Positions 551 to 48,566 of a DNA stretch of 48,566 nucleotides are shown here, piece by piece (position 1 is the stretch's first letter; every line of letters starts with the position of its first letter). Source of the DNA: a virus. Lineage: Duplodnaviria > Heunggongvirae > Uroviricota > Caudoviricetes. The DNA lies in the IMG/VR virus record IMGVR_UViG_2636415673_000004, positions 1-48,566 of that record; one strand, written 5' to 3'. The notes under the pieces are model-generated. The model saw only the letters and a list, made by a program, of their open reading frames with translations. It was not told the origin of the DNA and searched no databases. Made by a program: the position numbers and the translations under genes.

Positions 551-1141
551 ATGTCTCGAATTTTTGCTTACTGTCGGATATCAACGCTGGATCAGACCAC
601 CGAAAATCAACGCCGGGAAATCGAAAGTGCAGGTTTTAACATCAAATCTCAGCAAATAATCGAAGAACACATTAGCGGCTCAGCAGCAACCAGTGAGCGT
701 CCTGGTTTTAACCGGTTGCTTGCTCGCCTGAAATGTGGTGATCAATTGATTGTGACAAAACTGGATCGCCTTGGTTGTAATGCAATGGATATCAGGAAAA
801 CAGTGGAACAACTGACCGAAACAGGTATCAGAGTGCATTGCTTAGCATTGGGGGGCATTGACCTGACCAGTCCAACAGGAAAAATGATGATGCAAGTAAT
901 TTCAGCAGTCGCTGAATTTGAACGAGACCTTTTACTTGAACGCACTCATTCCGGGATAGTAAGAGCCCGCGGCGCAGGGAAACGTTTTGGTCGACCACCT
1001 GTGTTAAATGAAGAACAGAAACAGGTGGTATTCGAACGAATTAAGTCAGGTGTAAGTATAAGTGCCATTGCCCGGGAATTCAAAACCTCGCGGCAAACCA
1101 TTTTAAGAGCCAAAGCAAAACTTCAGACACCTGACATATAA
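551..1141 (+). CDS. pinQ: Serine recombinase, Pin/Gin/Hin-family DNA invertase (196 aa)
   Basis: N-terminal catalytic motif [10 protein letters not shown] and C-terminal HTH; same length as PinQ/PinR; lies next to tail-fibre genes. Confidence 0.9.
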
Positions 1142-1368
1142 AAAATAATCTCGGTGTGAGATGCTTTACGTCTTCCAAGCCCCCTTCCTTGCCGTAAATG
1201 GAAAGATACATCTAATTATAGAATTTATATGTTTTACCCTACGGCAGTGCTGGCCATTCAATATCCTGTGCAGTTGACGTATCAACACGGTTCAGCAATA
1301 CCCGATACTTTTTCCATGCTTCCAGCAATGAGATTTCTTCCTCCGTTGCATATACAGCTCACCTTTTT

Positions 1369-1662
1369 TCACCCACGATTAACCAACAGCCAGACCAGCA
1401 GACACGCCACCACCGGCACAGCAAAATCTATCAGGCTTGCCACATCCCAAACACGCGGATCAAAACCGCCCCACCACGGCATGTTAATCCGCTTGCAATG
1501 CCCGAACATTTCAATCCAGCGATATTCTGCCTGGGTGTGTTCCCGCGCAATGAAGAATGTACAACCGGCTATCGCCCCGTAAGCCCAGTTTCCGGTAAAA
1601 AGACCAACCAGTACCTGCGCAGCCACAGCACAAAGCGCATGAAGAAAAGGTGTTATATCCAT
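1369..1662 (-). CDS. Small hydrophobic (probable inner-membrane) protein; start uncertain (1662, 1668 or 1692)
   Basis: ORF with hydrophobic segments directly downstream of the S74 fibre gene; AGGA lies 5 nt before the ATG at 1662. Confidence 0.4.
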   Translation of the reverse strand: MDITPFLHALCAVAAQVLVGLFTGNWAYGAIAGCTFFIAREHTQAEYRWIEMFGHCKRINMPWWGGFDPRVWDVASLIDFAVPVVACLLVWLLVNRG

Positions 1663-1703
1663 TTTCATCCTACCCAATAAAACGGGGCGCATAGCCCTTA
1701 ATA

Positions 1704-2744
1704 TTATTTAGACGCAAGCGTCGCCTCAATTGCAGATAATCTTTGCCTTAATTCTGCGTTTTCTTCTTCCAGTACTGTTATTCTGTCGTCTGACTCTCTG
1801 GCTACCTGAACAAGCAAGCCAGTAACACCAGAATAATCTACTGTGTAATAACGTTCACCTTCTTCACCTTCCGATCCGCTTGCACCGTCCTGATATTTCA
1901 TTGCGGAACCGACAACTTCTGGGATTGCTTCCAGAGCTTCCTGTGCAATGACACCTGCATAGGGCATACCGTTTTCTTTAAGCGTGTATGTATAGCCGTT
2001 CATTTTACGGATGCGGTCGGTTGCATTATCGATCACCTGAATGTTGTCTTTCAGATCCCGGTCGGAATGCTGGTTAAATGCGGTGGCATGACATGCACCA
2101 TTAACGCTTAACATATAGGTGTTATCGGTATTTTTCTGCGCATAGAACATATACGCGCCACCATCAGCACCAACTTCATATACAACCGGACGGGTAGAGT
2201 TACCCCACAAACTAGTAGTAGCGCCAGAATGAGCGGTCCCCTGTGTGTTTAATGTCATGGTTGACCCATGATTGGCATATTTGATTTGTAATGTGTCTGT
2301 GCAGTCAAACTTAATAAGCGCGTTACTTCCCCGCACACCATACGACATGAGACAGTTCCCCATCTTAAGGTAACCATCACTGCCTGGAAAAATTAATGTT
2401 CCGCCGTAAAGATCGCTAAAATCCCAAAAGATACCTTTTGTTCCATTGTGTGTGACAATCCTTGTCATTGTATCTTTTGTACCGTCAATATTTTTTCTGG
2501 TGTACATCTCACTATAAGCGTTTTCGGTTTCTCCTGTCTTATTTGACAAGTGAATCTTACCGCTAAATATAGTTCCAGTGGTCGGCAATGCCTTTTGATC
2601 ATAGATTACATTGCAATAACTATTCCATGTTGTTTTATTGTCTACATATGATTTTGTTGCATAGCTTCCTTGATCAGTTTTTAGTTTACTAACATCGGAT
2701 TTTAGCGTTTTGATGTCATCAGGAATTACTGTTTTTGTAACCAT
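1704..2744 (-). CDS. Tail fibre/tail spike-like protein with C-terminal intramolecular-chaperone (peptidase S74) domain (346 aa)
   Basis: C-terminal DLKDNIQ...GYTYT...AGVIAQE...YYTVDYSGVTGLL block followed by a coiled-coil tail is typical of self-cleaving fibre chaperone domains; GGAG RBS 7 nt upstream. Confidence 0.6.
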   Translation of the reverse strand: MVTKTVIPDDIKTLKSDVSKLKTDQGSYATKSYVDNKTTWNSYCNVIYDQKALPTTGTIFSGKIHLSNKTGETENAYSEMYTRKNIDGTKDTMTRIVTHNGTKGIFWDFSDLYGGTLIFPGSDGYLKMGNCLMSYGVRGSNALIKFDCTDTLQIKYANHGSTMTLNTQGTAHSGATTSLWGNSTRPVVYEVGADGGAYMFYAQKNTDNTYMLSVNGACHATAFNQHSDRDLKDNIQVIDNATDRIRKMNGYTYTLKENGMPYAGVIAQEALEAIPEVVGSAMKYQDGASGSEGEEGERYYTVDYSGVTGLLVQVARESDDRITVLEEENAELRQRLSAIEATLASK

Positions 2745-2756
2745 TGTCTTACTCCA

Positions 2757-3026
2757 TTAAGCCCATGTCCTTACATGCTGATCTGTCGTAATGAAAGGCA
2801 TTAAAGAAGATATGTTTTTACTGCTATCAACAATCCTCATGTTTACGAAAAAACCACCGCGATCAATGCCTGTACATCTTTCGTTTTCTGGCTCCTCGTA
2901 ATCGATAATGCAGCCAATAACATCAACAAGAACCCCGTTTTCTTCTTCAAGACTGAACAGGCCACTGTCATATACAATTGCGTTAAACTGTTCTCTGTTA
3001 TCGAATCGTAATGTTATATCTCGCAT
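2757..3026 (-). CDS. Hypothetical protein (89 aa), translationally coupled to stf; possible fibre accessory/assembly factor
   Basis: ATG overlaps the stf stop as TAATG; no recognisable domain. Confidence 0.4.
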   Translation of the reverse strand: MRDITLRFDNREQFNAIVYDSGLFSLEEENGVLVDVIGCIIDYEEPENERCTGIDRGGFFVNMRIVDSSKNISSLMPFITTDQHVRTWA

Positions 3027-5383
3027 TATACGTATTCCTTAAGCTGCGTATCTGACAATGCTCTGTTCCAGAAACGGAGGTTTTTTATATGACCATTAAG
3101 GTGTCGTAATCCTGTCGTCGTTTGCCCCCCGATACGAATCACGGCTGCTTCACGAATATATTTCCATACTGTTTTTGTTTCAGCGCTTATATGCTTATTT
3201 GCAAATGAGCATGTCATGCCGTCAGCCTTAACCCTGAATCCCATAACGAGATCCCTTACTCCGCATGATTCATATACACGTCGGTTAGCCCCGCCTATAT
3301 CGCAATACGAATAACCGTCCTGACTGATAGTTCCAGAAGAACCAAACCCCATAATAAATGGGCCTCCGGACTGGTGATTTTCTGAATCAATGACACGCGG
3401 TGCAGCATTATGAGAAATAAACCAGTTTTTATGGACTTCCACCATGAACGTAAAAGGCATGGTATACATATTTTTCATCAGCGGAAATTTACATAAATCT
3501 GATGCACGAGTCGCTGGCTCTGTTGTCGTTATGATGAAGGAAGTTGCACAAGCACCATACTCGAATTGCGGGGTGGTTACTTCTATCCAGTCACCTGTTG
3601 CAAAAGCTCCCACAGCTCTGTCGGCTGCAATTTGCAGCTGCGTACCAACCATTCCCCATTCTGGCAGACATTTCAGTGTTGCCTGAAAATATATCCATCC
3701 ACTACCAGGGTCGATTTCAAAGTTTGCTGTTAATAGCTGGGCATTGCCACCAGTAATTTGTAGTTCATGGGTCTGTAATGACAAATAGGCGTCGCAAAGG
3801 AAGGTGTATCCTTCCGAGTTATACCGTTCAAAACGGATACGTGCGCGAACATTGAGATCACTTCTTACCCTGAACGACGCGGTAACATACGGACCTTTAC
3901 TGTACTGATCATCGCCAGTCACATCTATGCCTTTGTTACCAGCAACTGTGCATATATTTCTCCCTGTTGTCGTTCCTGCTATATCGCTTCCTACCGTGAA
4001 ACGTCCATATTTAAACTCAAATTCATCTGTTGATGATGTTACAGATATACCACCGCTTTTATTCCACGCATCAGGATTAAAACTATTTACGAACATGTTT
4101 GTTCGCTGATTCTCTATCAGCAAACCATATTTTTCAAAACGAGGAACGTTATTACCTGCCACGGTAATATGCCCGGACTTATCAATATACGTTGCAGATG
4201 AAGCCCGGCTAAATTGGCATATGCCATTAACTGGCACAGTGATTTCATCGCTGCCGATGGTTATTGTTTTATACCCCGGCGCATACCCTGTTATCGCTTC
4301 CAGAGAATCATTCAAGGGTAGCCAGATATCAGGAAGCGGAGGGACAGAAGCAGGATCAGCGGCATCTTCTGCAATCCGGGCTGCATTCTCTGCTCTTGTT
4401 GCGGCTGACGTTGCTTCTGTCTCGCTGGCTGCTGCTTTTGTTTCGCTCGCCTTTGCGTTAGTTTCACTGGTTTTTGCAGCTTTTTGGCTATTAGCTGCCG
4501 CTGTTGCAGAACCAGCTGCAGCACTCTCGCTTTCGGCTGCTGCATCCTGACTGCTTTTCGCCGCAGTTTCGCTGGCTTTGGCATTCGTTTCGCTGGTCTT
4601 CGCTGCCGTCTGGCTGGACTTTGCGTTAGTTTCACTCGTCTTCGCAGCTTTCTGGCTGTTAGCCGCAGCAGTTGCTGATCCAGCTGCTGAAGTCGCAGAA
4701 CCGGCTGCCGCGCTCTCGCTTTGGGCTGCTGCAACCTGGCTGTTTTTTGCCGCAGTTTCACTGGCTTTGGCATTCGTTTCGCTGGTCTTCGCTGCCGTCT
4801 GGCTGGACTTTGCGTTGGTTTCGCTCGTCTTTGCGGCTGTCTCGCTGTTTTTCGCGTTGGTTTCTGATTTTTTGGCTGCTGTCGCGGAGTTTGCCGATGC
4901 AGTCTGTGAGGTCGCTGCCGCCTGTGCGCTGTTAGCTGCATTCGTTTCTGAGGTTTTCGCCGCGTTCTTCGATGATGCCGCTGCAGTTTCGGATTTCTTT
5001 GCCGCCGCTGCGCTCTGAGAGGCGGCTTCGGCGTTGCGTGCCGCTTCTTCCACCATTTCCTCAAAACGGCGCAATGCCTCCGGCATGACATCATCTTCCG
5101 TCATGGCACCGAGAAAATCATTCAGCGTACCTGGTCTGGAACCTTCATAGACGGTAATGGTCCCGGCATGTGAAGGCGGAAAACCTTCAACCAGCAGGGT
5201 GACGCTGTACTGGCCATACTCAACATCCATGCTGTAACGCCCGGCTTCATCAGGATTTTCAGAGGCCACCGTGTTCACCAGTACCGTGGTGCTGTTACGC
5301 TTTGCCTTCAGTTGAATAGTGCAGTTCTGTATTGGTTTTCCCGCACCATCTTTCAGCACACCTGAGATTTTTACTGCTGCCAT
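3026..5383 (-). CDS. stf: Side tail fibre protein Stf (about 785 aa) with lambda-Stf-like N-terminus, Ala/Ser/Thr tandem repeats and LamG-like C-terminal domain
   Basis: N-terminus MAAVKISGVLKDG... resembles lambda Stf; repeated KTSETNAK units; C-terminus ends in a ...NLRFWNRALSDTQL motif. ATG at 5383 preferred over GTG at 5389. Confidence 0.8.
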   Translation of the reverse strand: MAAVKISGVLKDGAGKPIQNCTIQLKAKRNSTTVLVNTVASENPDEAGRYSMDVEYGQYSVTLLVEGFPPSHAGTITVYEGSRPGTLNDFLGAMTEDDVMPEALRRFEEMVEEAARNAEAASQSAAAAKKSETAAASSKNAAKTSETNAANSAQAAATSQTASANSATAAKKSETNAKNSETAAKTSETNAKSSQTAAKTSETNAKASETAAKNSQVAAAQSESAAAGSATSAAGSATAAANSQKAAKTSETNAKSSQTAAKTSETNAKASETAAKSSQDAAAESESAAAGSATAAANSQKAAKTSETNAKASETKAAASETEATSAATRAENAARIAEDAADPASVPPLPDIWLPLNDSLEAITGYAPGYKTITIGSDEITVPVNGICQFSRASSATYIDKSGHITVAGNNVPRFEKYGLLIENQRTNMFVNSFNPDAWNKSGGISVTSSTDEFEFKYGRFTVGSDIAGTTTGRNICTVAGNKGIDVTGDDQYSKGPYVTASFRVRSDLNVRARIRFERYNSEGYTFLCDAYLSLQTHELQITGGNAQLLTANFEIDPGSGWIYFQATLKCLPEWGMVGTQLQIAADRAVGAFATGDWIEVTTPQFEYGACATSFIITTTEPATRASDLCKFPLMKNMYTMPFTFMVEVHKNWFISHNAAPRVIDSENHQSGGPFIMGFGSSGTISQDGYSYCDIGGANRRVYESCGVRDLVMGFRVKADGMTCSFANKHISAETKTVWKYIREAAVIRIGGQTTTGLRHLNGHIKNLRFWNRALSDTQLKEYV
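4420..4935. repeat. In-frame tandem DNA repeats (about 189-bp period) inside stf
   Basis: The block ccgcagtttc(g/a)ctggctttggcattcgtttcgctggtcttcgctgccgtctggctggactttgcgtt occurs at about 4561 and 4750, with degenerate copies upstream. Confidence 0.7.
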
Positions 5384-5394
5384 ATCCACTCCAC

Positions 5395-5421
5395 AAAAAA
5401 GCCCGCCTGAACCGGCGGGCT
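5395..5421 (-). terminator. Rho-independent terminator downstream of lom
   Basis: Minus-strand AGCCCGCC-GGTTCA-GGCGGGCT followed by TTTTTT. Confidence 0.7.
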
Positions 5422-5447: not shown

Positions 5448-6047
5448 TCAGAATTTATAACCGACACCCACGATGAAACCGTCAGTGCGCCAGTCACCAC
5501 TGCCGGAACCTTCATAAGCAAGGTCAATGGCCACGGATTCGGTCGGGTTAAACTGCACGCCAGCTCCCCACGCCAGAGACGTGTTGCTGTGGCGACCGTC
5601 ATCACTTCCGGTCAGCACATCGTGCGTTTTCCCCTTGTTGTCAGTTACGCGGAGATAATCCCCGGAGAAAGTCGACACACGGCTGTAAGCCATACCCGCC
5701 ATCGCATACGCGCTGAACCATTCATTCACGCGTACAGACGGCCCCGCCATCACGCTGAACCAGCGGTTACGCACGGAATCTTCATGCCAGCGGGTATCGC
5801 TGTAACGGGTAAGCTGGCGATTCTTGTCTCCTGCATAGCTGAATGACGTCACCAGCCCCAGTGTGTCCGTAAACTCATAACGGTATTTCACGTTAATCCC
5901 GTTAAGATCATCGCTGCCGGGAACGTTCGTCGAGGCATGAAGATACCCCGCGCTCAGCGTGGACTGATGTTCAGATGCCCATGCAGGCGCACCGGATACG
6001 GCCAGACAAATGGCTGCGGACAAAATGGCGGCATAAAGTTTACGCAT
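5448..6047 (-). CDS. lom: Lom outer-membrane protein (Ail/Lom family), 199 aa
   Basis: Signal peptide [24 protein letters not shown] plus beta-barrel-like sequence ending GVGYKF; conserved position after J. Confidence 0.85.
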
Positions 6048-6113: not shown

Positions 6114-9100
6114 TCAGCTGATACTGATGCCTGCGGTGGCTTTCTTCATCACCACAACCAGCAAATCGCTGATACTTGCTGTGGGATACCAGTCATTTAC
6201 CAGCCATGCTGACACCGAAAACTCCAGCGTCATGTGACCGTGACCGGCAGGCATATCAATAACGCCACTGTAAATCAGCGTATTATCCAGCGCGGTACGG
6301 TTATAAATTTCAGCACCGTTTTTCCGCACTATCAGACGGCATGAGGAGTAAATATCAGTATGCTCTCTCTCATGTTTAGCGCCGCTGAATGCCACCGCCG
6401 GAATAACAATCTGCCGGTCAAACGGCTGATCGTCATAAACCCTGACGGTAATGGTCCCTGATGGCCACCGTTCCGGTGCACGGGAGTCCCGGGGGAAAGC
6501 TTTGCCCACTGTTTTAACGAGATCGCCTTCAATCTGGTTCGCGGACAGTTTTCCCAGAACCCGACAGTTCTCGTTAATCGTGACGTTGTTGAGCGTCCCG
6601 GAGTTCGCATTCACGTTACCGCTGATATCGGCATTTTTCGCCGTCAGCCGCCCATCCGGTGTCAGGGAAAATGCCGGTGGATTTCCACCACTGGTAATGG
6701 TGGGGGCCGTCAGGCGTTTCAGGAACACGTCGTTCATGAATATCTGATTGCCCTGCGCCACAAACATCGGCGTTTCATTCCCGTTTGCCGGGTCAATAAA
6801 CGCGATACGGTTAGCGGCAACCAGAAACTGGCTCAGTTTGCCTTCCTCCGTGTCCTCCATACTGAGGCCAATACCCGCGACATAATGTTTGCCGTCTTTG
6901 GTCTGCTCAATTTTGACAGCCCACATGGCATTCCATTTATCGTTGGCATCCTTCCACTCTTTCGAAAACTCATCCAGTCTGCTGGCGTTATCCTCCGTCA
7001 GATCGACTTTTTCCAGCAGCTCCTTGCCGAGATGGGATTCGGTTATCTTGCCTTTGAAAAAATCCAGGTAACCTTCCGCATCATCGCTCGCCCGACCGAC
7101 GGACTCCACGAATGCCGATTTGCCAACGGTGTTCACACTGCGGATATAAAAGTAATAATCATGGCCCGGTTTGATATTGATACTGGCGGCTATCCAGTAC
7201 AGCCCCGTGCCAAGGTAGCGGGCTGTGGTTTCAACCTGCCTGATATCGGTAATCCGCGTTTCCGAGAACCAGAACTCAAACTGTACCGTCGGATCATAAA
7301 CCGCAAGATGCGGCGTGGCGGTGATCTGAAAATAGCCCGGCGTCAGCTCAATCCTCGACGGTGCTGCCGGTGCGGCAATCCGGAACGATACCGACGCCGG
7401 ATCGCCCTGCTGCCCCCACGCATTTACCGCCCGGACTGTCAGCCTGTAGTTCCCCAGCGCCAGCTGCGTGAAGCGGTATGTGGTTTCCGCCGTCCGGGCC
7501 GTGCTGACCAGCCGCTCACTGCCGTCATCCGCTGCCACGGTCAGGCGAAGCATAAAGCTCACCCCCTTCACCACCTTCGGCGTATCCCAGCGTGCCAGCA
7601 CCTGATACTCCCCGCTGTCTGCGGTGACTTCGGCAGTCAGGTGCTGCACCGCTGGCGGCGTGACACCATTCACCGTGCCGCTCTGGTCGCCGTCAAAGTG
7701 CGCCCCGTTATCCACGATGGCTTCTTTTTCCGGTACATGCTGCACGGCGGTGATGGCATACGTGCCGTCGTCGTTCTCACGGATACTCACGCAGCGGAAC
7801 AGGCGCTGGCGCAGCGTCGGCAGCTTCAGCCCCCATACGCTGTATTCAGCAACGCCGTCAGGAACACGGCTCACTTTCACCTTCACGCCGTCGGTGACGG
7901 ACTGGACCTCCACGCTGACCGGATTGCCACTTCCGTCAACCAGGCTTATCAGCGTGGTACCGGAGGATGGCAGCGTGATTTCACGGTCGAGCGTCAGCGT
8001 CCGGGTCTGGCTGTTCACAGCCAGCACGCGCCCGCCGATGCTGATCCCCGCATAGTCATCATCGCAGATTTCAATAACATCCCCCGGCACATGGCGAAGC
8101 CCTTCGGCACCCACGCTGAAATCCACGGTCTGCGTCTCCAGCAGCTCCGTTTTAATCAGCCACAGCCCGGCGCGGTGTGCCTGCCCCCGACTGGTACAGC
8201 CAAAGGCATCCATCTTCGTGACGTTACGACCGTAACGGGCAATGGCCTGCGTGTCCTCCACAAGCTCTGTCGCCGTCTCCCAGCCGTTATCCGGGTCAAT
8301 CCAGTTCACCTCAACGGCATTATGACGGTCCTTCAGGGCGCTGAAGCTGTAGCGGAACGGCGCGCCATCATCCGGCATCACCACATTACTGCGGTTATAG
8401 GTCCACACCTTATCCGATGGCCGGTCCTGCACGAACGTCAGCGTCTGCCCGTTCCATACCGGCATACAGCGCATCGCCGAGCAGAAATCACTGAGCACAT
8501 CCCACGCCTTGCGCTGTGTGGTCAGGTACGCATTACAGGCGATGCGCGGCTCCGTGCCGCCAAAGCCGTCCGGCACCGACTGGTCGCAGTACTGGCCGAT
8601 GACATACAGCGCCCATTTATCCACATCCGCCGCACCAAGACGTTTCCCCATGCCGTAGCGCGGATGGATCAGCATATCCCACAGACACCAGGCCATGTTG
8701 TTGCTGTATGCCGGTTTTAACGTTCCGTCCCAGATACCGCTGTATTGTCGCGTCTGCGGGTTATAGTTCGACGGCACCTGCAGAATGCGCCCGCGCAGAT
8801 GATAATTACGACTCACCTGCTGACTGCCGAACTGCTCCGAGTCCACCTGTACGCCAACCAGTGCCGTGTTCGGGTAGCACTGTTTCACATCGATGATTTC
8901 GGTGTATGACGACCAGAGCGTTTTGTTCTGCAGCTGGTCTGTGGTGCTGTCCGGCGTCATCCTGCGCATCCGGATATTAAACGGGCGCGGCGGCAGGCTA
9001 CCCACCACCACCGAGGCCAGATACTGCGAGGTGGTTTTGCCCTTAATGGTGATGTCTTTTTCCGTCACCCAGCCACCGTTACGTTGTATCTGAACCAGCA

Positions 9101-9509
9101 GGCGGACTTCCGACGGATTCCTGTCACCCTTTGAGGTGGTTTCCACCAGTGCCTGCACGCCGAAAGTAAAGCGCAGACGGTCGATGTTTGCCGACGTGAT
9201 GGTGCGGGTGATCGGCATGTCATATTTCACTTCCATACCCAGCACCGTCTCGGAGCCGGAGGATTCAAACCCCTCCGGCGGAGTCTGCTCCTGCTCACCT
9301 GCCCGGAACACCACCGTGACACCGGAGATGTTGGTATTCCCCTCAGTGTCCAGCACCGGCGTACTGTTCAGCAGCACGCTTTTTAATCCATCCACCGGAC
9401 CTTCAACCGGCCCTTCGCTGATGGCATCGATCACACTCAGCAACTGCGTGGACTTCAGGTTGTCCTTCGCTTCGCGCGGGGTATGCCCCTTACTGCTTCC
9501 TTTACCCAT
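6114..9509 (-). CDS. J: Tail tip/host-specificity protein J (1131 aa)
   Basis: Matches lambda gpJ over most of its length as recalled ([21 protein letters not shown]...); C-terminal about 150 aa look divergent. Confidence 0.95.
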
Positions 9510-43332: not shown

Positions 43333-46300
43333 TCACACGCTGCGCCTTCGAGAATATTCATTTAATCGCTGATAACGAACATCTTGCTCCAGTTGTGGAG
43401 CAGCTTGAACAATTTGAAGCAAGCATTGCCCCAACTCTCGAGGCCCCCAGTGTTGTTCGGCAATCACGGCATTCAGCAGGGATAGAGCGTCCGCAGGATA
43501 TCGGCTGCAAATATCTGATTCTAGCAAAAGGCGAACGTCGTAGCTAAGGTGTTCGAGCGGTTGCAGCCAGTCCTGCACCACTGCCAAAGCCGCCGGAAAT
43601 TCACCTCGGGCAGCAATCACCATACGAGTCAACGATTCGGATATGCGTGGGGTGGCCAAGTTGCGGGACTTTGGCCAAACCTGTTGCCAAAATGGCTGGA
43701 CACGATTTTTCCAATACTCCTCGCGCTGATCGCCCGCACCTTCAAGTGCCTGGTATAACGCCTGCGCGGCTACCTCCAGACCTTCTTGTGGAAGAGCACT
43801 AATTGCCGTTCGGAACTCCTCCACGGTATATCCCTCGGTAGGGCCCAGAGCTGCATAAGTCAGGAAAGTAGCGAATTGCTGCCGGTGCTCGCCAAGATCA
43901 GAATAGTGATTGGCGCTCTCCAAAAAATCTGACTTGAAAGCTATCAGCAACGGTTCATACAGGCGTGGCGACCAGAGGAAGCCTTCCCACACAGCTTTTG
44001 CTTCGACGGGATTACTCCAAGCAAACAAGGGCAATAGATACTGTTCGGTCCAAGGTCGATCTACGCGAAAAAATGCGATCAGCCGCGACCCCAGCAACAC
44101 CCGACCATGGCGGAATAGCTCTATCTGTACATTACACAATTTGGTGAAAAGTGTTTTCAATTCAACAGGAAGCAAATCATTGTCATTCGGGTTCTGTTTG
44201 AACCATAGGGTGATCAGTGATTGCGTGACATGCCCAATGGGATGATTGATCGCCGTAGAAACAGGATCATAGGTCTCAATTCCGTTTCGAATGGTGCTAG
44301 ACTCTGGGCTTGTTTCTATCATCAGAACCCGACGACAAAGGGCCAGTAGAATCTCCTCGTGGCAGAGGATGGTCTTCGAAGCCTCCTCCATCCACCAAGT
44401 GACAGCGTGGGAAATCTCCTGAAGTACTGCGTCAGGCATGTCAAGCACCAACGGTGCGGCGTACCGCCACGAACGCAAAATCATCCCTGGTTCAGCCCAA
44501 GTCTGCAGAGCTTCACGCCACCGACCAACAGGCCACACATCATCTTGTGATAGTTTACTTAACGCATACAGACTGTGAAAAAAGCGCGTACGGCAAACAT
44601 CACTCCAAGTGTCCTCATAGAAAGGCAGTCTTTCTGGCATAGGCTTTGCGAGCCATTGCACTAATTCCTGCCACTTACGGGGCGCAATGTCGACATCTAT
44701 ATTCTCCTCGAAGCCTGGATCACCGGTTCCGCTCATCCAGTGAGAGAATTCATCACGCTCGTTGGTTGCCAGTTGCCATTTTGGGTATGCTGTGGATATT
44801 TCCGTCAAACGTGTAGCCGCAGACTCTCCCAAAACAAGGCCCGCTCCCCTGAGCTTCGCTAGACACAACCAGACGGAATGAGCCACCAAATAATGCCACC
44901 TGTCTGCTTCCAAATTATCCTCGTACATCTCGCGCGGAGGCCCTGCCAAGATAGCAGTTTCCAGACGCTCTTGTGCAATTCCTGTCAGATGTCGTCCCTG
45001 CAAAACAAACAGTCTGAATACCTCTCGCCCAGTATCCGTGGCCCACAACCACCATGAACCGTCCTCTAACAACCAATTAACCCACCGCTCAGGTGGTATG
45101 CAGTTGTCTTGGCTTGCGGCAAACAGTGCCAGACGTTTGAAGGTGGGATATGGCAACTCAAACCAATTCTGAGCAATGCGCGTGGCCTGATCGCTGTCTT
45201 TGGCTCGAACGGCTAACCATGAATCCCGAAGTAATTCAATCAGGCTCACCCAATCGCGGAACCCCCGGTTCTGCCAGTGCGGAGTGATGGACGGCAAATC
45301 CCAATGCGAGCGGTCGTGACGATCGTCGGACTCTCCCAACTCCCGCAACAAGTCCAGTGCATCACGCAACAACTGCTGAAAATCTTCCAACAGGTATGGC
45401 AAGGACGATTTCCATGACTCGTCAGCAAGGTCGAACAGGGTTGAACGTACGTAATCAGCAGTCAGCACCAGCTCCCAATCCACCAATTGCTTGATTCGCA
45501 AGGGTTCATCAGTGCTGCTCGAATCGTCTTCACTATAGCGAAACGGCCGCCTCAACATAACCTTGGGAGAAAGCAACTCGCGTAACTCCAAGCGCAATGT
45601 AGTCGTCAAGCCTTCATTCTTTAAGCGGTTTTGCCAACGATACAAATCCAGGTTCTGCAATGGCGATTTCACACGACCACTAAGCAGAAGCCGCCATAAA
45701 GTAGACATAGGTGGACCAGGAATAGCCAGGGGGGAATGCAAGAGAATTTCATCTAACTCAAAAGTCTTACGCTCCCGCATCAGTGCTGCTAAGCGATCTA
45801 GTTCGCTCTCAATCAGAAACATCCAACGGTCGTGTATTTGTCCGCCGCGTTCAGCAATCCATATGATCAACCTAGGGTCGCCCAGATAACGAACTAGCCA
45901 ACGGGCTATATGGGACATTACGTCATCCCATTTGCTAGCACTGACACATCCAGAAACCAGCGACATCTGCAGGGCCAGCTCATAGGGCGCAGGACGCTGA
46001 ACCAGACTGAATCGGAGTTTCGGGTCAATTTCGACATGCGGAGATACACAAAAGCGTGGCAGATCGCTGTATTTAAATCGTTCGTCCGAGAAAGCTTTCA
46101 ATAACCAATCCAGCGGCGGTGCAGGATTGAGTTCCGCAAAGCGTTTTGCTGGTAAACCTGATTTATCTGACAAGGCCCACAACATCCGACCAACGAAATC
46201 GTCCTGACGAGTGCTGTCCTGCGGGCGGGCCAGAGCATGTTTGACGACTATAGCCTCTTTGCCCTGTATACCATCTCGATAAGTATCTGCCCAAGCGTGC

Positions 46301-47160
46301 AACGTTTGATGCAGCACTGAATGATCAGTGGAGCCCGCCGGTACGGTGTAAAGGATAGGAGTGACCCCTTTGGCCTCCCACTCGATGGCTTTCCGGTGCT
46401 CCTGCCCCGGCTCACACTCCCCCAGTGCCCATACTTGTGGTGTGACTTCACCGAGCCTCCGATCTGCTGCAAGCGCATCCATCATGTAGCGCAGTACCGG
46501 GTCGTTGATGCTGTAGCCAACGAAGCAGACCACATAGTTACGAAATAACTCACTCACAAAGCGAGCTGCCCAACGCTCAGTGAGATAAGCCAAGCCAAAG
46601 TCACCGCTGGTAACAACCAGACGATTCAGGGCAGTATCATCCGCCTTTTCCGGTAACAGCCCATGCAGGTATACAAGTCCATCCCAGCGGCTGTTTTTTG
46701 GAATTGGCAGCATCGGCGCTACATAGGCCTGAAAAGCCTGGCCTGTACGTTTAGCTGCCACATGAAAGAGACGGTCAAAGTTGGTAGTGACCAATCGAAG
46801 GGCACCCTCGCGGCTACGGGCTAAACGTAACAGCGCCGCCTGAGTATCAATAGCGCCCCTACGACGGAGCTTTGGCTTAAGGGCTTTTTCCAACGCGCGT
46901 CGGACGGCTATACGCTGCCCTGGTAAGCGCCGTTCCAGCAAATCTAATGTGCCGTCAAATTGCCCACGCTCGAAAACCTCACGCTCAATTTCTGAAAGTG
47001 TTGTTCCGTTCCTCTGGTAAATTAGTTCTACCAACCCTTTGAAACCAGGTAAACCAGCAGGGTAGGAAATGCCTGCTCCACAGAAGAACACAACGCGCCC
47101 TTCCTCGTGCGCCTGCAAAAGCTCATCAGGAATATCAGGGCCGTTGGTAATGAATTGCAT
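43333..47160 (-). CDS. Large SIR2-domain protein (1275 aa): N-terminal sirtuin-like NADase domain (about aa 20-290) plus about 1000-aa helical C-terminal region of unknown function; candidate antiphage defence protein
   Basis: Sirtuin motifs GAGIS-x-P-x-GLPGF (aa 28-40), TTNFD (N127) and YLHG (H166); strong RBS (AGGAGG, 7 nt, ATG); cargo position between xis and int. Confidence 0.8.
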   Translation of the reverse strand: MQFITNGPDIPDELLQAHEEGRVVFFCGAGISYPAGLPGFKGLVELIYQRNGTTLSEIEREVFERGQFDGTLDLLERRLPGQRIAVRRALEKALKPKLRRRGAIDTQAALLRLARSREGALRLVTTNFDRLFHVAAKRTGQAFQAYVAPMLPIPKNSRWDGLVYLHGLLPEKADDTALNRLVVTSGDFGLAYLTERWAARFVSELFRNYVVCFVGYSINDPVLRYMMDALAADRRLGEVTPQVWALGECEPGQEHRKAIEWEAKGVTPILYTVPAGSTDHSVLHQTLHAWADTYRDGIQGKEAIVVKHALARPQDSTRQDDFVGRMLWALSDKSGLPAKRFAELNPAPPLDWLLKAFSDERFKYSDLPRFCVSPHVEIDPKLRFSLVQRPAPYELALQMSLVSGCVSASKWDDVMSHIARWLVRYLGDPRLIIWIAERGGQIHDRWMFLIESELDRLAALMRERKTFELDEILLHSPLAIPGPPMSTLWRLLLSGRVKSPLQNLDLYRWQNRLKNEGLTTTLRLELRELLSPKVMLRRPFRYSEDDSSSTDEPLRIKQLVDWELVLTADYVRSTLFDLADESWKSSLPYLLEDFQQLLRDALDLLRELGESDDRHDRSHWDLPSITPHWQNRGFRDWVSLIELLRDSWLAVRAKDSDQATRIAQNWFELPYPTFKRLALFAASQDNCIPPERWVNWLLEDGSWWLWATDTGREVFRLFVLQGRHLTGIAQERLETAILAGPPREMYEDNLEADRWHYLVAHSVWLCLAKLRGAGLVLGESAATRLTEISTAYPKWQLATNERDEFSHWMSGTGDPGFEENIDVDIAPRKWQELVQWLAKPMPERLPFYEDTWSDVCRTRFFHSLYALSKLSQDDVWPVGRWREALQTWAEPGMILRSWRYAAPLVLDMPDAVLQEISHAVTWWMEEASKTILCHEEILLALCRRVLMIETSPESSTIRNGIETYDPVSTAINHPIGHVTQSLITLWFKQNPNDNDLLPVELKTLFTKLCNVQIELFRHGRVLLGSRLIAFFRVDRPWTEQYLLPLFAWSNPVEAKAVWEGFLWSPRLYEPLLIAFKSDFLESANHYSDLGEHRQQFATFLTYAALGPTEGYTVEEFRTAISALPQEGLEVAAQALYQALEGAGDQREEYWKNRVQPFWQQVWPKSRNLATPRISESLTRMVIAARGEFPAALAVVQDWLQPLEHLSYDVRLLLESDICSRYPADALSLLNAVIAEQHWGPRELGQCLLQIVQAAPQLEQDVRYQRLNEYSRRRSV

Positions 47161-47342: not shown

Positions 47343-48566
47343 TCATTTCGAGCCTGAACGAGTACAAGTAACAATCGATTCAACTCTCTCCCACCATGCC
47401 TGGTAGGCTTTACGCTGTTCTTCTAGATAATCACTCTTGTCATAAACTTGCCATACACCTGGCAGTTTATGACCGAGCATTATTTCAGCAATATGAGGCG
47501 CAGTAAGATCAGAAAAGTTTGTTCGTGCTGTTCGTCTCAAATCATGAAGAGACCAATGAGGAAATTGATACCCCAAACGCCGCCATGCGTACTGCATTAA
47601 ATTGTAAGGTAGCGACTGCAATGATGTCCGACCAACTGGTTCCCTGCTTCCTTCCTTAGTAAAAAGCATATCGGAACCGTTGTTCATAGAGATAACGTAT
47701 TTTATAAGCTCTTCAACCGGTTCAATAATGGGCCGCTTTAGCGGTTCGCCTGTTATATCCCCTGTCTTATGTCGTTCTGGTGGTACAGTCCATATTTTAT
47801 TAATGAAATCAAAATCGTCCACCTTGGCAGTAATTAGCTCTGAACTACGGCAACCAAAATGCAGCAATAGTTTAATGAAGGCCCGGTATTTAGGAACCAT
47901 TCGAGAACCATCGATCGCAGCATAAAGGATTTTAATTTCATCATGTGTCAGAAACCGTTTCTTCTGACCTTTACGGATATCCATATCTTTACCCGTGATA
48001 TCCGACAGCGGGCGAGTTTCAATGAGCTTTCTCTTATACGCCCAGACATGGGCCTGCTTTGCGTTAATTAGCAATCGGTCTGCTATTGCTGGAGTCTTAG
48101 TGCTAAGAGGCTCCAGGACTTCTAACCAATCATGCAATGTAGCTGCATCGTGAGGGATATTCCCGATTTTAGAGAACAGGTGCAGCTCAAACGAGCGGAG
48201 TATCTGTTCAGAACCTTTTTTATTTTTTACACAATATGCTTCATACCAAGCACGGATCACAGATTCTACCGTCATGGCTTCAGTAGCTTTACGTTTTTCT
48301 GCCAGCTTGACCAATCGTGGATTGCGGTTTGACTCGAGTTCACCACGAAGACGGATAACTTCTTCTCTGGCCTCTTTTAGTCCAGTTGCCGGGTAAGTTC
48401 CGATATCAAGACGCTCACCTTTCCCCGCCCACTGATAACGATATTGGAACACTACGCGACCTTTCGGTGATACTCTAACAGACAGACCATCACGATCGGA
48501 TTTAACCAAAACCTTATCACGTTCCTTTCCAACAACTGAACGCAACCACGCATCAGACAGCGCCAT
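47343..48566 (-). CDS. int: Tyrosine-type phage integrase (407 aa); ATG at the window edge
   Basis: N-terminus MALSDAWLRSVVGKERDKVL...GLSVRVSPKGRVVFQYRY typical of P4-like integrases; C-terminal catalytic region with HDLRRT and HxxG-Y motifs. Confidence 0.85.
   Translation of the reverse strand: MALSDAWLRSVVGKERDKVLVKSDRDGLSVRVSPKGRVVFQYRYQWAGKGERLDIGTYPATGLKEAREEVIRLRGELESNRNPRLVKLAEKRKATEAMTVESVIRAWYEAYCVKNKKGSEQILRSFELHLFSKIGNIPHDAATLHDWLEVLEPLSTKTPAIADRLLINAKQAHVWAYKRKLIETRPLSDITGKDMDIRKGQKKRFLTHDEIKILYAAIDGSRMVPKYRAFIKLLLHFGCRSSELITAKVDDFDFINKIWTVPPERHKTGDITGEPLKRPIIEPVEELIKYVISMNNGSDMLFTKEGSREPVGRTSLQSLPYNLMQYAWRRLGYQFPHWSLHDLRRTARTNFSDLTAPHIAEIMLGHKLPGVWQVYDKSDYLEEQRKAYQAWWERVESIVTCTRSGSK

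What the first reader, a model, noticed from the sequence alone, without database searches (positions are those of the whole stretch)
1704..3026. Second fibre gene with a self-cleaving intramolecular-chaperone (peptidase S74) domain downstream of stf
The 346-aa protein ends with the conserved fibre chaperone block (S-D-R-D-L-K...GYTYT...YYTVDYSGVTGLL) seen in endosialidase and L-shaped tail fibres, but lacks a lambda Stf-type tail-attachment N-terminus. Together with the coupled 89-aa ORF (2757..3026) this suggests a branched or dual-fibre arrangement, or an alternative receptor-binding protein; it is unusual for a lambda-type tail.
Basis: partly seen in the sequence, partly recalled or inferred. 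Interest (0 to 1): 0.45.

Follow-up and report, generated by a model that had tools for sequence, protein, structure and literature searches.

The report
Add-on second fibre behind lambdoid stf
Behind the side-tail-fibre gene of this E. coli lambda-like prophage lies a real, self-cleaving second fibre gene; it belongs to a three-gene cassette shared by several unrelated coliphage groups and most likely gives the side fibre an extra, swappable receptor-binding tip, an arrangement that is common and already partly described.

Summary
On the minus strand, 1704..2744 encodes a 346-aa protein with a C-terminal Peptidase_S74 intramolecular-chaperone domain (E=6e-14; Ser227/Lys232) and no Stf N-terminal anchor. 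2757..3026 encodes an 89-aa protein whose start overlaps the stf stop.

The three genes form a conserved cassette: a big fibre with a lectin-like C-terminal region, a small ~90-aa protein, and a short S74 fibre. I found it in lambdoid, T5-like, T1-like and Queuovirinae phages. It is homologous to Gp22-Gp23-Gp24 of phage IrisVonRoten, where the third protein was modelled as docking on the proximal fibre.

The big fibres carry group-specific N-terminal anchors. The second fibres all start with MVTKTVIPxDIxxLK, and 110 of 110 such ORFs follow a small-protein gene. The fibre therefore most likely docks on the Stf/small-protein assembly, not on the tail.

The 89-aa protein pairs with the Stf C-domain even where no second fibre exists (ev243, Lambda_2E9, an rV5-like myovirus). 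It is therefore Stf's partner, not a dedicated partner of the second fibre.

The gene is under purifying selection (dN/dS 0.10-0.33) and occurs in 638 of 5426 complete E. coli genomes, so it is not unusual. Physical attachment is untested.

The parts
3026..5389 (-). stf: proximal side tail fibre, 787 aa from GTG 5389 (RefSeq starts at ATG 5383, 785 aa). Residues 5-134 are the lambda-type tail anchor. Residues ~115-345 are Ala/Ser/Thr-rich 'SETNAK' repeats. Residues 345-787 are the conserved cassette C-region, starting at 'PLPDIWLPLNDSL'.
   Evidence: PF08400 E=7e-67. Residues 5-97 match chain 9e7m, E=7e-49. Full-length match to phrog_1419. Alignment with big fibres of four other phage groups. 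45% identity to IrisVonRoten Gp22 over residues 133-787.
3503..4120 (-). Stf residues 424-629: GTA head-spike-fibre-type beta domain, a putative glycan-binding module.
   Evidence: NCBIfam NF048003 GTA_spike_fiber, E=2.2e-12, 47.9 bits against cut-off 36. A profile of eight homologues hits the RcGTA head spike fibre Rcc01080 (6tb9), E=4e-12.
3041..3154 (-). Stf residues ~746-783: end of a concanavalin-A/LamG-like C-terminal domain (...RHLNGHIKNLRFWNRALSDTQL).
   Evidence: Pfam Laminin_G_3 is below its gathering score here (E=7e-4) but is found in 7 of 8 homologues, best E=1e-5. The homologous domain of IrisVonRoten Gp22 is called 'galectin-like' in PMC11990801.
2757..3026 (-). 89-aa small partner protein (Gp23-like). 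Its start overlaps the stf stop (TAATG). Function is not assigned; it is probably an assembly or structural partner of the Stf C-region.
   Evidence: phrog_1361 E=1e-30. No Pfam, NCBIfam, PADLOC or PDB sequence hit. Homologues of 91-93 aa directly follow the big fibre gene in every cassette seen, 110 aa in nomine. The family has 344 proteins. AF2 model pLDDT 66.5, alpha/beta.
1704..2744 (-). Second (distal or branch) fibre, 346 aa. The predicted mature part is residues 1-226 (24.8 kDa) and the released chaperone is residues 227-346 (13.2 kDa).
2700..2744 (-). Residues 1-15, MVTKTVIPDDIKTLK: conserved N-terminal peptide, the proposed docking element, leading into a short heptad coiled coil (~9-25).
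   Evidence: Conserved in lambdoid, Nonagvirus, Seuratvirus, T5-like and T1-like second fibres. 12 of the first 17 residues are identical to IrisVonRoten Gp24, while the remainder aligns at only 25% identity. The profile hits trimeric coiled coils (Lpp, fibritin, P22 gp26). AF2 predicts a helix at 11-25. 110 of 110 ORFs with this peptide follow a small-protein gene.
2385..2633 (-). Residues 38-120: hypervariable beta-sandwich region, a candidate receptor-contacting module.
   Evidence: Only ~30% identical to the Tritos and PhiR47_1 alleles, whereas residues 121-346 are 60-100% identical. It overlaps the AF2 beta-rich region with pLDDT 70-83 at residues 50-150.
2067..2384 (-). Residues 121-226: fibre tip preceding the cleavage site. 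It contains a T4 gp34-like repeat (STRPVVYEVG...FYAQKN).
   Evidence: Profile hits to T4 gp34 structures 4uxe and 5nxf, E=5e-6. Residues 114-337 are 47% identical to the C-terminal tip (945-1174) of the single-chain 1202-aa Stf of mEp460.
1707..2066 (-). Residues 227-346: S74 intramolecular chaperone with Ser227/Lys232 and a C-terminal helix.
   Evidence: PF13884. S227 and K232 are conserved in at least 90% of 19 homologues. Aligned to the C-terminal part of the 6f45 chain through to the last helix. AF2 helix 305-345.
1369..1662 (-). 97-aa hydrophobic protein downstream. It is a lambdoid-specific neighbour and is not part of the cassette in virulent phages.
   Evidence: phrog_1443. 93% identical in Tritos, ev243 and 2E9, with or without a second fibre. 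Absent from the JenP2, T5-like and T1-like cassettes.
5400..5421 (-). Terminator-like hairpin between lom and stf. No comparably strong one lies between stf and the 97-aa gene, so the four genes are probably one late transcript (inference).
   Evidence: 8-bp stem, 7 GC pairs, T-run. A terminator is annotated at the same place in mEp460.

Best explanation
The 346-aa protein is the exchangeable distal or branch subunit of a composite side tail fibre.

Proposed mechanism:
1. stf, the 89-aa gene and the 346-aa gene are co-transcribed late in infection.
2. The 346-aa chains trimerise with the help of their own C-terminal S74 chaperone, which then cuts itself off at Ser227. This leaves a ~25-kDa mature fibre.
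3. The mature fibre consists of a conserved N-terminal peptide (MVTKTVIPDDIKTLK), a short coiled coil, a hypervariable beta domain, and a gp34-like tip.
4. The N-terminal peptide docks non-covalently on the conserved C-terminal part of Stf and/or on the 89-aa protein. Stf itself is fixed to the tail by its lambda-type N-terminal domain.
5. Stf carries its own putative glycan-binding domains (GTA-spike-fibre type and LamG-like), so the assembled fibre would present two different binding modules.

The 89-aa protein is primarily the partner of the Stf C-region, as a chaperone, cap or hinge.

Shown: gene reality, S74 membership, cassette conservation, and strict linkage of the N-terminal peptide to the cassette.

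Inferred: self-cleavage, presence in virions, the docking site, and the receptor (probably a surface glycan).
For: S74 domain and dyad:
-.

Purifying selection:
- dN/dS 0.10-0.33.

Cassette conservation. The same order, big fibre, ~92-aa protein, then a fibre ending in an S74 domain, with 9-13 nt spacers, occurs in:
- lambdoids;
- Nonagvirus JenP2;
- Seuratvirus KurtStettler and Tequintavirus IrisVonRoten;
- a 111-kb T5-like contig;
- T1-like contigs.

Anchors versus shared parts:
- The big fibres have different N-terminal anchors: lambda type, T5 Ltf type next to LtfC, and T1 type.
- They share the C-terminal ~440 aa.
- The second fibres share only the first ~15-17 residues and the chaperone.
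- In many T5-like phages DNA similarity stops ~17 codons into the second fibre gene.

Linkage:
- 110 of 110 evaluable IMG/VR ORFs with the peptide pattern start within 40 nt downstream of a small-protein homologue.

Exchangeability:
- The same Stf allele (99% identical) is paired with either the 346-aa fibre or a 227-aa 'mini fibre'. Both have the same N-terminal peptide.

Homology to a published cassette:
- Stf is 45% identical to IrisVonRoten Gp22, and the 89-aa protein is 33% identical to Gp23.
- PMC11990801 models Gp24 as attached to the proximal fibre.

The tip is a bona fide fibre end:
- Residues 114-337 are 47% identical to the C-terminal end of the single-chain Stf of mEp460.
Against: - Nothing here or in the papers read shows physical attachment or presence of this protein in virions.
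- The published docking for IrisVonRoten is an AlphaFold-Multimer model, and its text names the proximal fibre inconsistently (Gp22 or Gp23).
- Phages with the same Stf type and small protein but no second fibre exist, so no docking site can be deduced from presence or absence.
- Linkage of the N-terminal peptide to the Stf/small allele could reflect mere adjacency.
- The IMG/VR samples are dominated by related E. coli prophages and are not independent.
- My AF2 monomer model is poor (pLDDT 56.8) and fold search gave nothing significant.
- No multimer modelling was possible.
Confidence: 0.7

Rival explanations
1. An independent second fibre that binds directly to the tail tip (J, or another tail protein) rather than to Stf, giving a dual-fibre rather than a branched arrangement.
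For: It has its own start codon and RBS and its own trimerisation chaperone. Some phages do carry several independently attached fibres, as cited in PMC8594841.
Against: The same N-terminal peptide is used in phages with unrelated tail tips: the lambda J type, the T5 type with pb4 and LtfC, the T1 type, and Queuovirinae. It never occurs away from the small-protein/Stf-C cassette (110 of 110). The protein has no recognisable anchor domain. The conserved N-terminal part is only ~15 residues plus a coiled coil.
Confidence: 0.12
2. A trans-acting assembly factor. The protein, or its S74 domain, helps Stf fold and is not retained on the particle. Stf in this cassette has neither a Tfa nor its own chaperone domain.
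For: The homologous KurtStettler gene is annotated 'putative lateral tail fiber chaperone'. The mini-fibre allele would leave only ~108 mature residues. Stf here lacks a Tfa, and only a Tfa remnant survives at 1239..1349.
Against: Cassettes without this gene keep intact Stf and small-protein genes (ev243, 2E9, nomine). Known S74 chaperones act on their own polypeptide (established knowledge of endosialidase K1F and T5 pb1). Residues 38-120 are hypervariable, as expected of a receptor-binding part rather than a chaperone. The tip is homologous to the end of a single-chain Stf.
Confidence: 0.1
3. A non-functional leftover of fibre-gene recombination, that is, the severed 3' half of a long stf that happens to retain an ORF.
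For: Residues 114-337 are homologous to the C-terminal end of a 1202-aa Stf. The region is mosaic. Truncated or deleted copies exist (PhiR47_1 is split, L032 and L033 are deletion remnants).
Against: dN/dS is 0.10-0.33. The length of 346 aa is intact in 43 of 80 IMG/VR loci and in several deposited phage genomes. The N-terminal module is conserved across phage groups at only 40% overall identity. A proper RBS is present.
Confidence: 0.03

Closest known systems
Lateral tail fibre locus of Tequintavirus IrisVonRoten (Bas32): Gp22 (proximal fibre with a 'galectin-like' C-terminal domain), Gp23 (92 aa), Gp24 ('T-shaped' fibre with an intramolecular chaperone); PMC11990801
   Same: Homologous cassette in the same gene order. 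Stf residues 133-787 are 45% identical to Gp22. The 89-aa protein is 33% identical to Gp23 (E=3e-11). 12 of the first 17 residues of the second fibre are identical to those of Gp24, and both end in an S74 domain. The published AlphaFold-Multimer model attaches Gp24 to the proximal fibre.
   Different: The anchor is the lambda Stf N-domain rather than the T5 Ltf N-terminus with LtfC. The distal fibre is 346 aa instead of 574 aa and lacks the Gp12-like domain shared with phiEco32 gp15. The host phage is a temperate lambdoid.
Branched L-shaped fibres LtfA/LtfB of T5-like phages DT57C and DT571/2 (PMC4728585, PMC10713586)
   Same: It works alike. A tail-anchored fibre carries a second, separately encoded fibre with its own S74 chaperone and its own specificity. 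Genetics there show that LtfB needs LtfA.
   Different: It is not homologous in the docking parts. LtfA has its own chaperone domain and no small intervening gene. The LtfB N-terminus resembles phiEco32 gp15, which shows no similarity to the peptide here.
Phage lambda Stf/Tfa side tail fibre
   Same: Same N-terminal tail-attachment domain (PF08400; 9e7m E=7e-49) and the same genomic position after J and lom.
   Different: There is no Tfa chaperone, only a remnant. The Stf C-terminus is a lectin-like region. Two extra genes supply a partner protein and a separate tip.
Single-chain lambdoid Stf with a C-terminal S74 chaperone (for example mEp460, 1202 aa)
   Same: The same kind of tip plus chaperone (47% identity over residues 114-337) and the same anchor.
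   Different: There the anchor, shaft, tip and chaperone are one polypeptide. Here the tip is a separate protein with a docking peptide.
Peptidase S74 intramolecular chaperones of endosialidase K1F, T5 pb1 and S16 gp37
   Same: Pfam family, Ser-x4-Lys motif, C-terminal position, terminal helix.
   Different: The carrier protein is unusually short, with a mature part of 226 aa.
T4 long tail fibre gp34-gp35-gp36-gp37
   Same: A multi-protein fibre in which a small protein joins a proximal and a distal half (established knowledge). The tip region has a gp34-like repeat.
   Different: There is no sequence relation between the 89-aa protein and gp35 or gp36. A hinge role for the 89-aa protein is only an analogy.

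Membership tests
Peptidase S74 / intramolecular chaperone domain (346-aa protein) | Match to the family profile above the curated threshold | tested here: met
   PF13884 E=6.2e-14, 52.5 bits against cut-off 22, residues 227-278. Profile-to-PDB hits on 6f45 (2.5e-8) and a myelin regulatory factor chain, 7dc3 (1e-3).
Peptidase S74 / intramolecular chaperone domain (346-aa protein) | Catalytic Ser and Lys five residues apart at the start of the domain (the Ser911/Lys916 pattern of endosialidase, from established knowledge) | tested here: met
   S227-D-R-D-L-K232. Both residues are conserved in at least 90% of 19 homologues.
Peptidase S74 / intramolecular chaperone domain (346-aa protein) | Located at the C-terminus of a trimeric fibre and ending in a long helix | tested here: met
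   The domain spans residues 227-346. AF2 predicts a helix at 305-345. The alignment to the 6f45 chain runs to the terminal helix. The trimeric state itself was not tested.
Peptidase S74 / intramolecular chaperone domain (346-aa protein) | Autoproteolytic release after folding | not testable with these tools
   Needs SDS-PAGE or mass spectrometry of wild type against S227A.
Lambda-type Stf (prophage tail fibre N-terminal domain) | PF08400 anchor domain at the N-terminus | tested here: not met
   Absent from the 346-aa protein. Present in the 787-aa Stf at residues 5-134, E=7e-67.
IrisVonRoten-type composite lateral fibre cassette (Gp22/Gp23/Gp24) | Proximal fibre with the conserved ~440-aa C-region (PLPDVWIPFNDSL ... 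RHLFGHVRNFRIW) | tested here: met
   45% identity to Gp22. Alignment of eight big fibres.
IrisVonRoten-type composite lateral fibre cassette (Gp22/Gp23/Gp24) | ~92-aa gene immediately after, overlapping or abutting the proximal fibre gene | tested here: met
   TAATG overlap. 33% identity to Gp23, E=3e-11.
IrisVonRoten-type composite lateral fibre cassette (Gp22/Gp23/Gp24) | Third gene starting with M-[VA]-T-x-T-x-I-P-x-D-I-x-x-L-K and ending in an S74 domain | tested here: met
IrisVonRoten-type composite lateral fibre cassette (Gp22/Gp23/Gp24) | Physical attachment of the third protein to the proximal fibre | not testable with these tools
   Only a published AlphaFold-Multimer model for the homologue exists. 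No multimer prediction or interface output is available here.
DT57C/phiEco32-type branched fibre (LtfB/gp15 docking module) | N-terminal ~45 residues similar to phiEco32 gp15 | tested here: not met
   No BLASTP similarity between the 346-aa protein and phiEco32 gp14 or gp15 at E<=1.
Tail fibre assembly chaperones (lambda Tfa / Mu U type), considered for the 89-aa protein | Match to a known Tfa family profile | tested here: not met

The most novel reading that the evidence does not exclude
The ~15-residue N-terminal peptide (MVTKTVIPxDIxxLK) together with the ~90-aa protein forms a universal, portable, non-covalent connector. It would be used by at least four siphovirus lineages to hang interchangeable receptor-binding fibres on a lectin-bearing proximal fibre; the proximal part also occurs in rV5-like myoviruses. 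Known examples of the hung fibre range from a 227-aa mini fibre to the 574-aa T-shaped Gp24. In this reading the small protein is the hinge or adaptor, analogous to T4 gp35, rather than a mere chaperone. If so, a short tag could suffice to graft foreign binding domains onto lambda-based particles.
Probability: 0.3. Interest if true: 0.55.

Novelty: new member of a known kind. Interest (0 to 1): 0.3.

Why it matters
Side and lateral fibres decide which O-antigen or capsule types a coliphage can approach. This cassette shows how a lambda-type phage can carry two binding modules and swap the outer one by recombination just after a 15-17-codon docking segment.

About one in eight complete E. coli genomes carries this second-fibre gene. 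That makes it relevant for predicting prophage host range and for engineering lambda-derived delivery particles.

The ~90-aa partner family has at least 344 members and remains without a known role or fold assignment.

Tried and rejected
- Invertible fibre switch. A pin-type recombinase (551..1141) and a Tfa remnant lie next to the locus. No convincing inverted repeats or crossover-like sites flank the fibre genes. I rejected a live switch as an explanation.
- Fold of the 346-aa protein. The AF2 monomer model had pLDDT 56.8. Foldseek against PDB gave nothing at E<=1e-3, and the top hit, T4 gp34 at 9e-3, only echoes the sequence similarity.
- The 89-aa protein, first homologue search. The word-indexed search found only 4 fragments. 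A profile of eight cassette homologues then found 344.
- The 89-aa protein, exhaustive profile search. It also pulled giant PKD-repeat proteins. Each repeat scores only 5-8 bits and the total is a sum over repeats. I did not accept this as homology.
- Homology to the DT57C/phiEco32 docking module: none.
- Readthrough fusion of the 89-aa and 346-aa ORFs. They are in the same frame with one stop in 8 of 9 cassettes. One T1-like cassette is out of frame, and the spacer is simply an RBS. I consider a fusion unlikely.
- Multimer modelling was not attempted, because the structure tool returns no interface information.
- Literature searches for virion proteomics or functional work on this cassette in lambdoid phages found nothing.
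Full report
**What is in the sequence.** All genes of the finding lie on the minus strand. The transcription order is:
- J (6114..9509);
- lom (5448..6047);
- stf (3026..5389, 787 aa);
- an 89-aa ORF (2757..3026);
- a 346-aa ORF (1704..2744);
- a hydrophobic ORF (1369..1662, 97 aa in RefSeq);
- a Tfa C-terminal remnant (1239..1349);
- on the plus strand, a pin-type serine recombinase (551..1141).

The window is 100% identical over the 1.8-kb stretch compared (window 1300-3100) to a prophage next to prfC in E. coli 2021CK-01784. The stf stop and the 89-aa start overlap (TAATG). The 346-aa gene follows after 12 nt that contain GGAG. A strong terminator-like hairpin precedes stf, and none of similar quality separates the following genes.

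The 346-aa protein carries Peptidase_S74 (PF13884) at residues 227-278 (E=6e-14). Ser227 and Lys232 are conserved in at least 90% of 19 homologues. A profile of these homologues reaches the chaperone-bearing tip of S16 gp37 (6f45, 2.5e-8), T4 gp34 repeats (5e-6) and a myelin regulatory factor chain (7dc3, 1e-3). Its N-terminal 50 positions resemble trimeric coiled coils.

The protein lacks PF08400. The 787-aa Stf has it, and Stf residues 5-97 match almost residue for residue a solved 'Tail fiber protein' chain (9e7m), which from my own knowledge I recognise as the lambda Stf N-terminus. dN/dS against five alleles is 0.10-0.33, so this is a selected gene.

**The three genes form a cassette that crosses phage groups.** The order is a big fibre (583-796 aa), then a 91-93-aa gene, then a fibre ending in an S74 domain, with 9-13-nt spacers. 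It recurs in:
- lambdoid phages Tritos, PhiR47_1 and PhiR11_1;
- Nonagvirus JenP2 gp23-25;
- Seuratvirus KurtStettler;
- Tequintavirus IrisVonRoten;
- a 111-kb T5-like contig, next to pb4 and LtfC;
- T1-like contigs.

Pairwise similarities to JenP2 are 31-33% for Stf over the full length, 29% for the small protein and 42% for the second fibre.

**What is shared and what differs.** Aligned, the big fibres have group-specific N-terminal anchors and repeat regions of variable length. They share a ~440-aa C-region that begins at PLPDVWIPFNDSL. That region contains two recognisable parts:
- a GTA head-spike-fibre domain (NCBIfam E=2e-12; RcGTA Rcc01080, 6tb9, E=4e-12);
- a LamG-like end (Laminin_G_3 in 7 of 8 homologues).

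The second fibres share only their first ~15-17 residues, a variable number of heptads (TLKSDVS), and the chaperone. In many T5-like phages DNA similarity ends about 17 codons into the second-fibre gene.

**Linkage statistics.** I took the 80 IMG/VR loci most similar to the Stf C-region and looked at the slot after the small gene. It held:

| Slot content | Loci |
|---|---|
| ~346-aa S74 fibre | 43 |
| 227-234-aa 'mini fibre' (same N-terminal peptide, own S74 domain) | 19 |
| Second fibre cut by the contig end | 6 |
| Another type of second fibre | 1 |
| Nothing | 6 |
| Deletion remnant | 2 |
| Not evaluable (contig ended at or before the small gene) | 3 |

The same Stf allele (99% identical) occurs with either fibre type. 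The N-terminal octapeptide allele follows the Stf/small allele, not the distal type.

A DNA pattern for M-[AV]-T-x-T-x-I-P-x-D-I found 111 further IMG/VR stretches. In 110 of 110 evaluable cases the ORF starts within 40 nt downstream of a small-protein homologue. These samples are dominated by related E. coli prophages, so the counts are not independent events.

**Role of the 89-aa protein.** It is not specific to the second fibre. ev243, Lambda_2E9 and six IMG/VR prophages have stf and the small gene but no second fibre. The rV5-like myovirus nomine has a 1479-aa fibre with the same C-region followed by a 110-aa homologue (E=7e-19) and no docking-peptide fibre. The invariant residues of the family are kept in those phages. 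It is therefore primarily the partner of the Stf C-region. Sequence and fold searches did not assign it a function.

**Most likely mechanism.** The second fibre folds and trimerises through its own chaperone, which is then cleaved off at Ser227. The mature 25-kDa trimer docks through its N-terminal peptide and coiled coil on the Stf C-region and/or the small protein. Stf is held on the tail by its lambda-type anchor.

The argument for docking on the cassette rather than on the tail has two parts. The docking peptide is constant across phages whose tails and fibre anchors differ, and it never leaves the cassette.

The hypervariable residues 38-120 (30% identity between alleles whose remainder is 60-100% identical) are the best candidate for receptor contact. 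The tip at residues 114-337 is homologous to the end of the single-chain Stf of mEp460.

Self-cleavage, virion presence, docking site and receptor are all inferred.

**Comparison with known systems.** The closest is the IrisVonRoten lateral fibre (Gp22/Gp23/Gp24). It is homologous gene for gene. PMC11990801 describes Gp24 as attaching to a proximal fibre that bears a galectin-like C-terminal domain.

The DT57C LtfA/LtfB branched fibre works alike and has genetic support. Its docking module is unrelated.

PMC8594841 already notes that lateral fibres of small siphoviruses may consist of one, two or more proteins.

The finding is therefore a new (lambdoid) member of a known kind, and it is frequent: 638 of 5426 complete E. 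coli genomes carry at least 80% of the gene.

**Rivals.**
- Direct attachment to the tail is disfavoured by the cross-group constancy of the peptide.
- A purely chaperone role is disfavoured by the hypervariable region and by intact cassettes without the gene.
- A dead remnant is excluded by selection and conservation.

No invertible switch is active here.

Noticed in passing
window 43333..47160 (-), next to the integrase at 47343..48566 (-): A 1275-aa protein matches the PADLOC Dsr1 model over its full length (E=0) and has an N-terminal SIR2_2 domain. This is a prophage-borne anti-phage defence gene at the integrase end of the prophage.
   Followed up: partly
window 551..1141 (+) and 1239..1349 (-): A pin-type serine recombinase lies beside a 36-codon Tfa C-terminal remnant, with no usable inverted repeats around the fibre genes. 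It looks like the relic of an invertible tail-fibre switch that the present cassette replaced.
   Followed up: partly
window 1369..1662 (-): A 97-aa protein with three hydrophobic segments (phrog_1443; no Pfam or PADLOC hit). It is 93% identical in lambdoid phages with or without the second fibre and absent from the virulent phages' cassettes. It may be a lysogen-expressed membrane protein.
   Followed up: partly
L018 6611..7294, L030, L056, L065 and 15 other IMG/VR loci (the same slot as window 1704..2744): An alternative allele occupies the slot: a 227-234-aa 'mini fibre' with the same N-terminal peptide, a longer coiled coil and its own S74 domain (residues 109-165). Its mature part would be only ~108 residues.
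   Followed up: partly
window 2757..3026 (-); proteins P0261, P0287, P0290, P0332, P0338: The profile of the ~90-aa family aligns in register with every repeat of giant PKD-repeat proteins. Each repeat scores only 5-8 bits and the E-values down to 1e-17 arise by summation. The AF2 model is alpha/beta, so a PKD/Ig-like relationship is unresolved.
   Followed up: partly
window 2745..2759 and the same junction in L002, L003, L006, L008, L011, L092, L093: The small ORF and the second-fibre ORF are in the same reading frame, separated by one stop plus 9 or 12 nt, in 8 of 9 cassettes. L009 is out of frame. This is probably RBS spacing rather than a readthrough fusion.
   Followed up: partly
L032 and L033, ~6599..6727: Deletion derivatives. 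The second-fibre gene is gone except for its last ~40 codons (...LLVQVARESDDRITALEEENAELRQRL...), lying between the small gene and the 97-aa gene.
   Followed up: yes
L003 2050..3090 (PhiR47_1): The second-fibre homologue is split into a 294-aa and a 37-aa ORF inside the chaperone domain. This is a frameshift or a sequencing error in that phage record.
   Followed up: no
L206 336..5107 (rV5-like myovirus nomine): The Stf C-region and its small partner also end a 1479-aa fibre of a Vequintavirus. The module therefore crosses the siphovirus/myovirus boundary.
   Followed up: partly
Phage collection records MG065692, MG065653, MG065654, OR849447, OR848352: Records named 'Campylobacter phage' or 'Listeria phage' carry T5-like or rV5-like coliphage fibre sequences. 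These are probably mislabelled or contaminated entries.
   Followed up: no
window 1707..2066 versus 2067..2633: Strong mosaicism relative to Tritos. The chaperone part is almost identical (dS 0.04) while the mature part is highly diverged (dS 0.9). This indicates recent recombination within the gene.
   Followed up: yes
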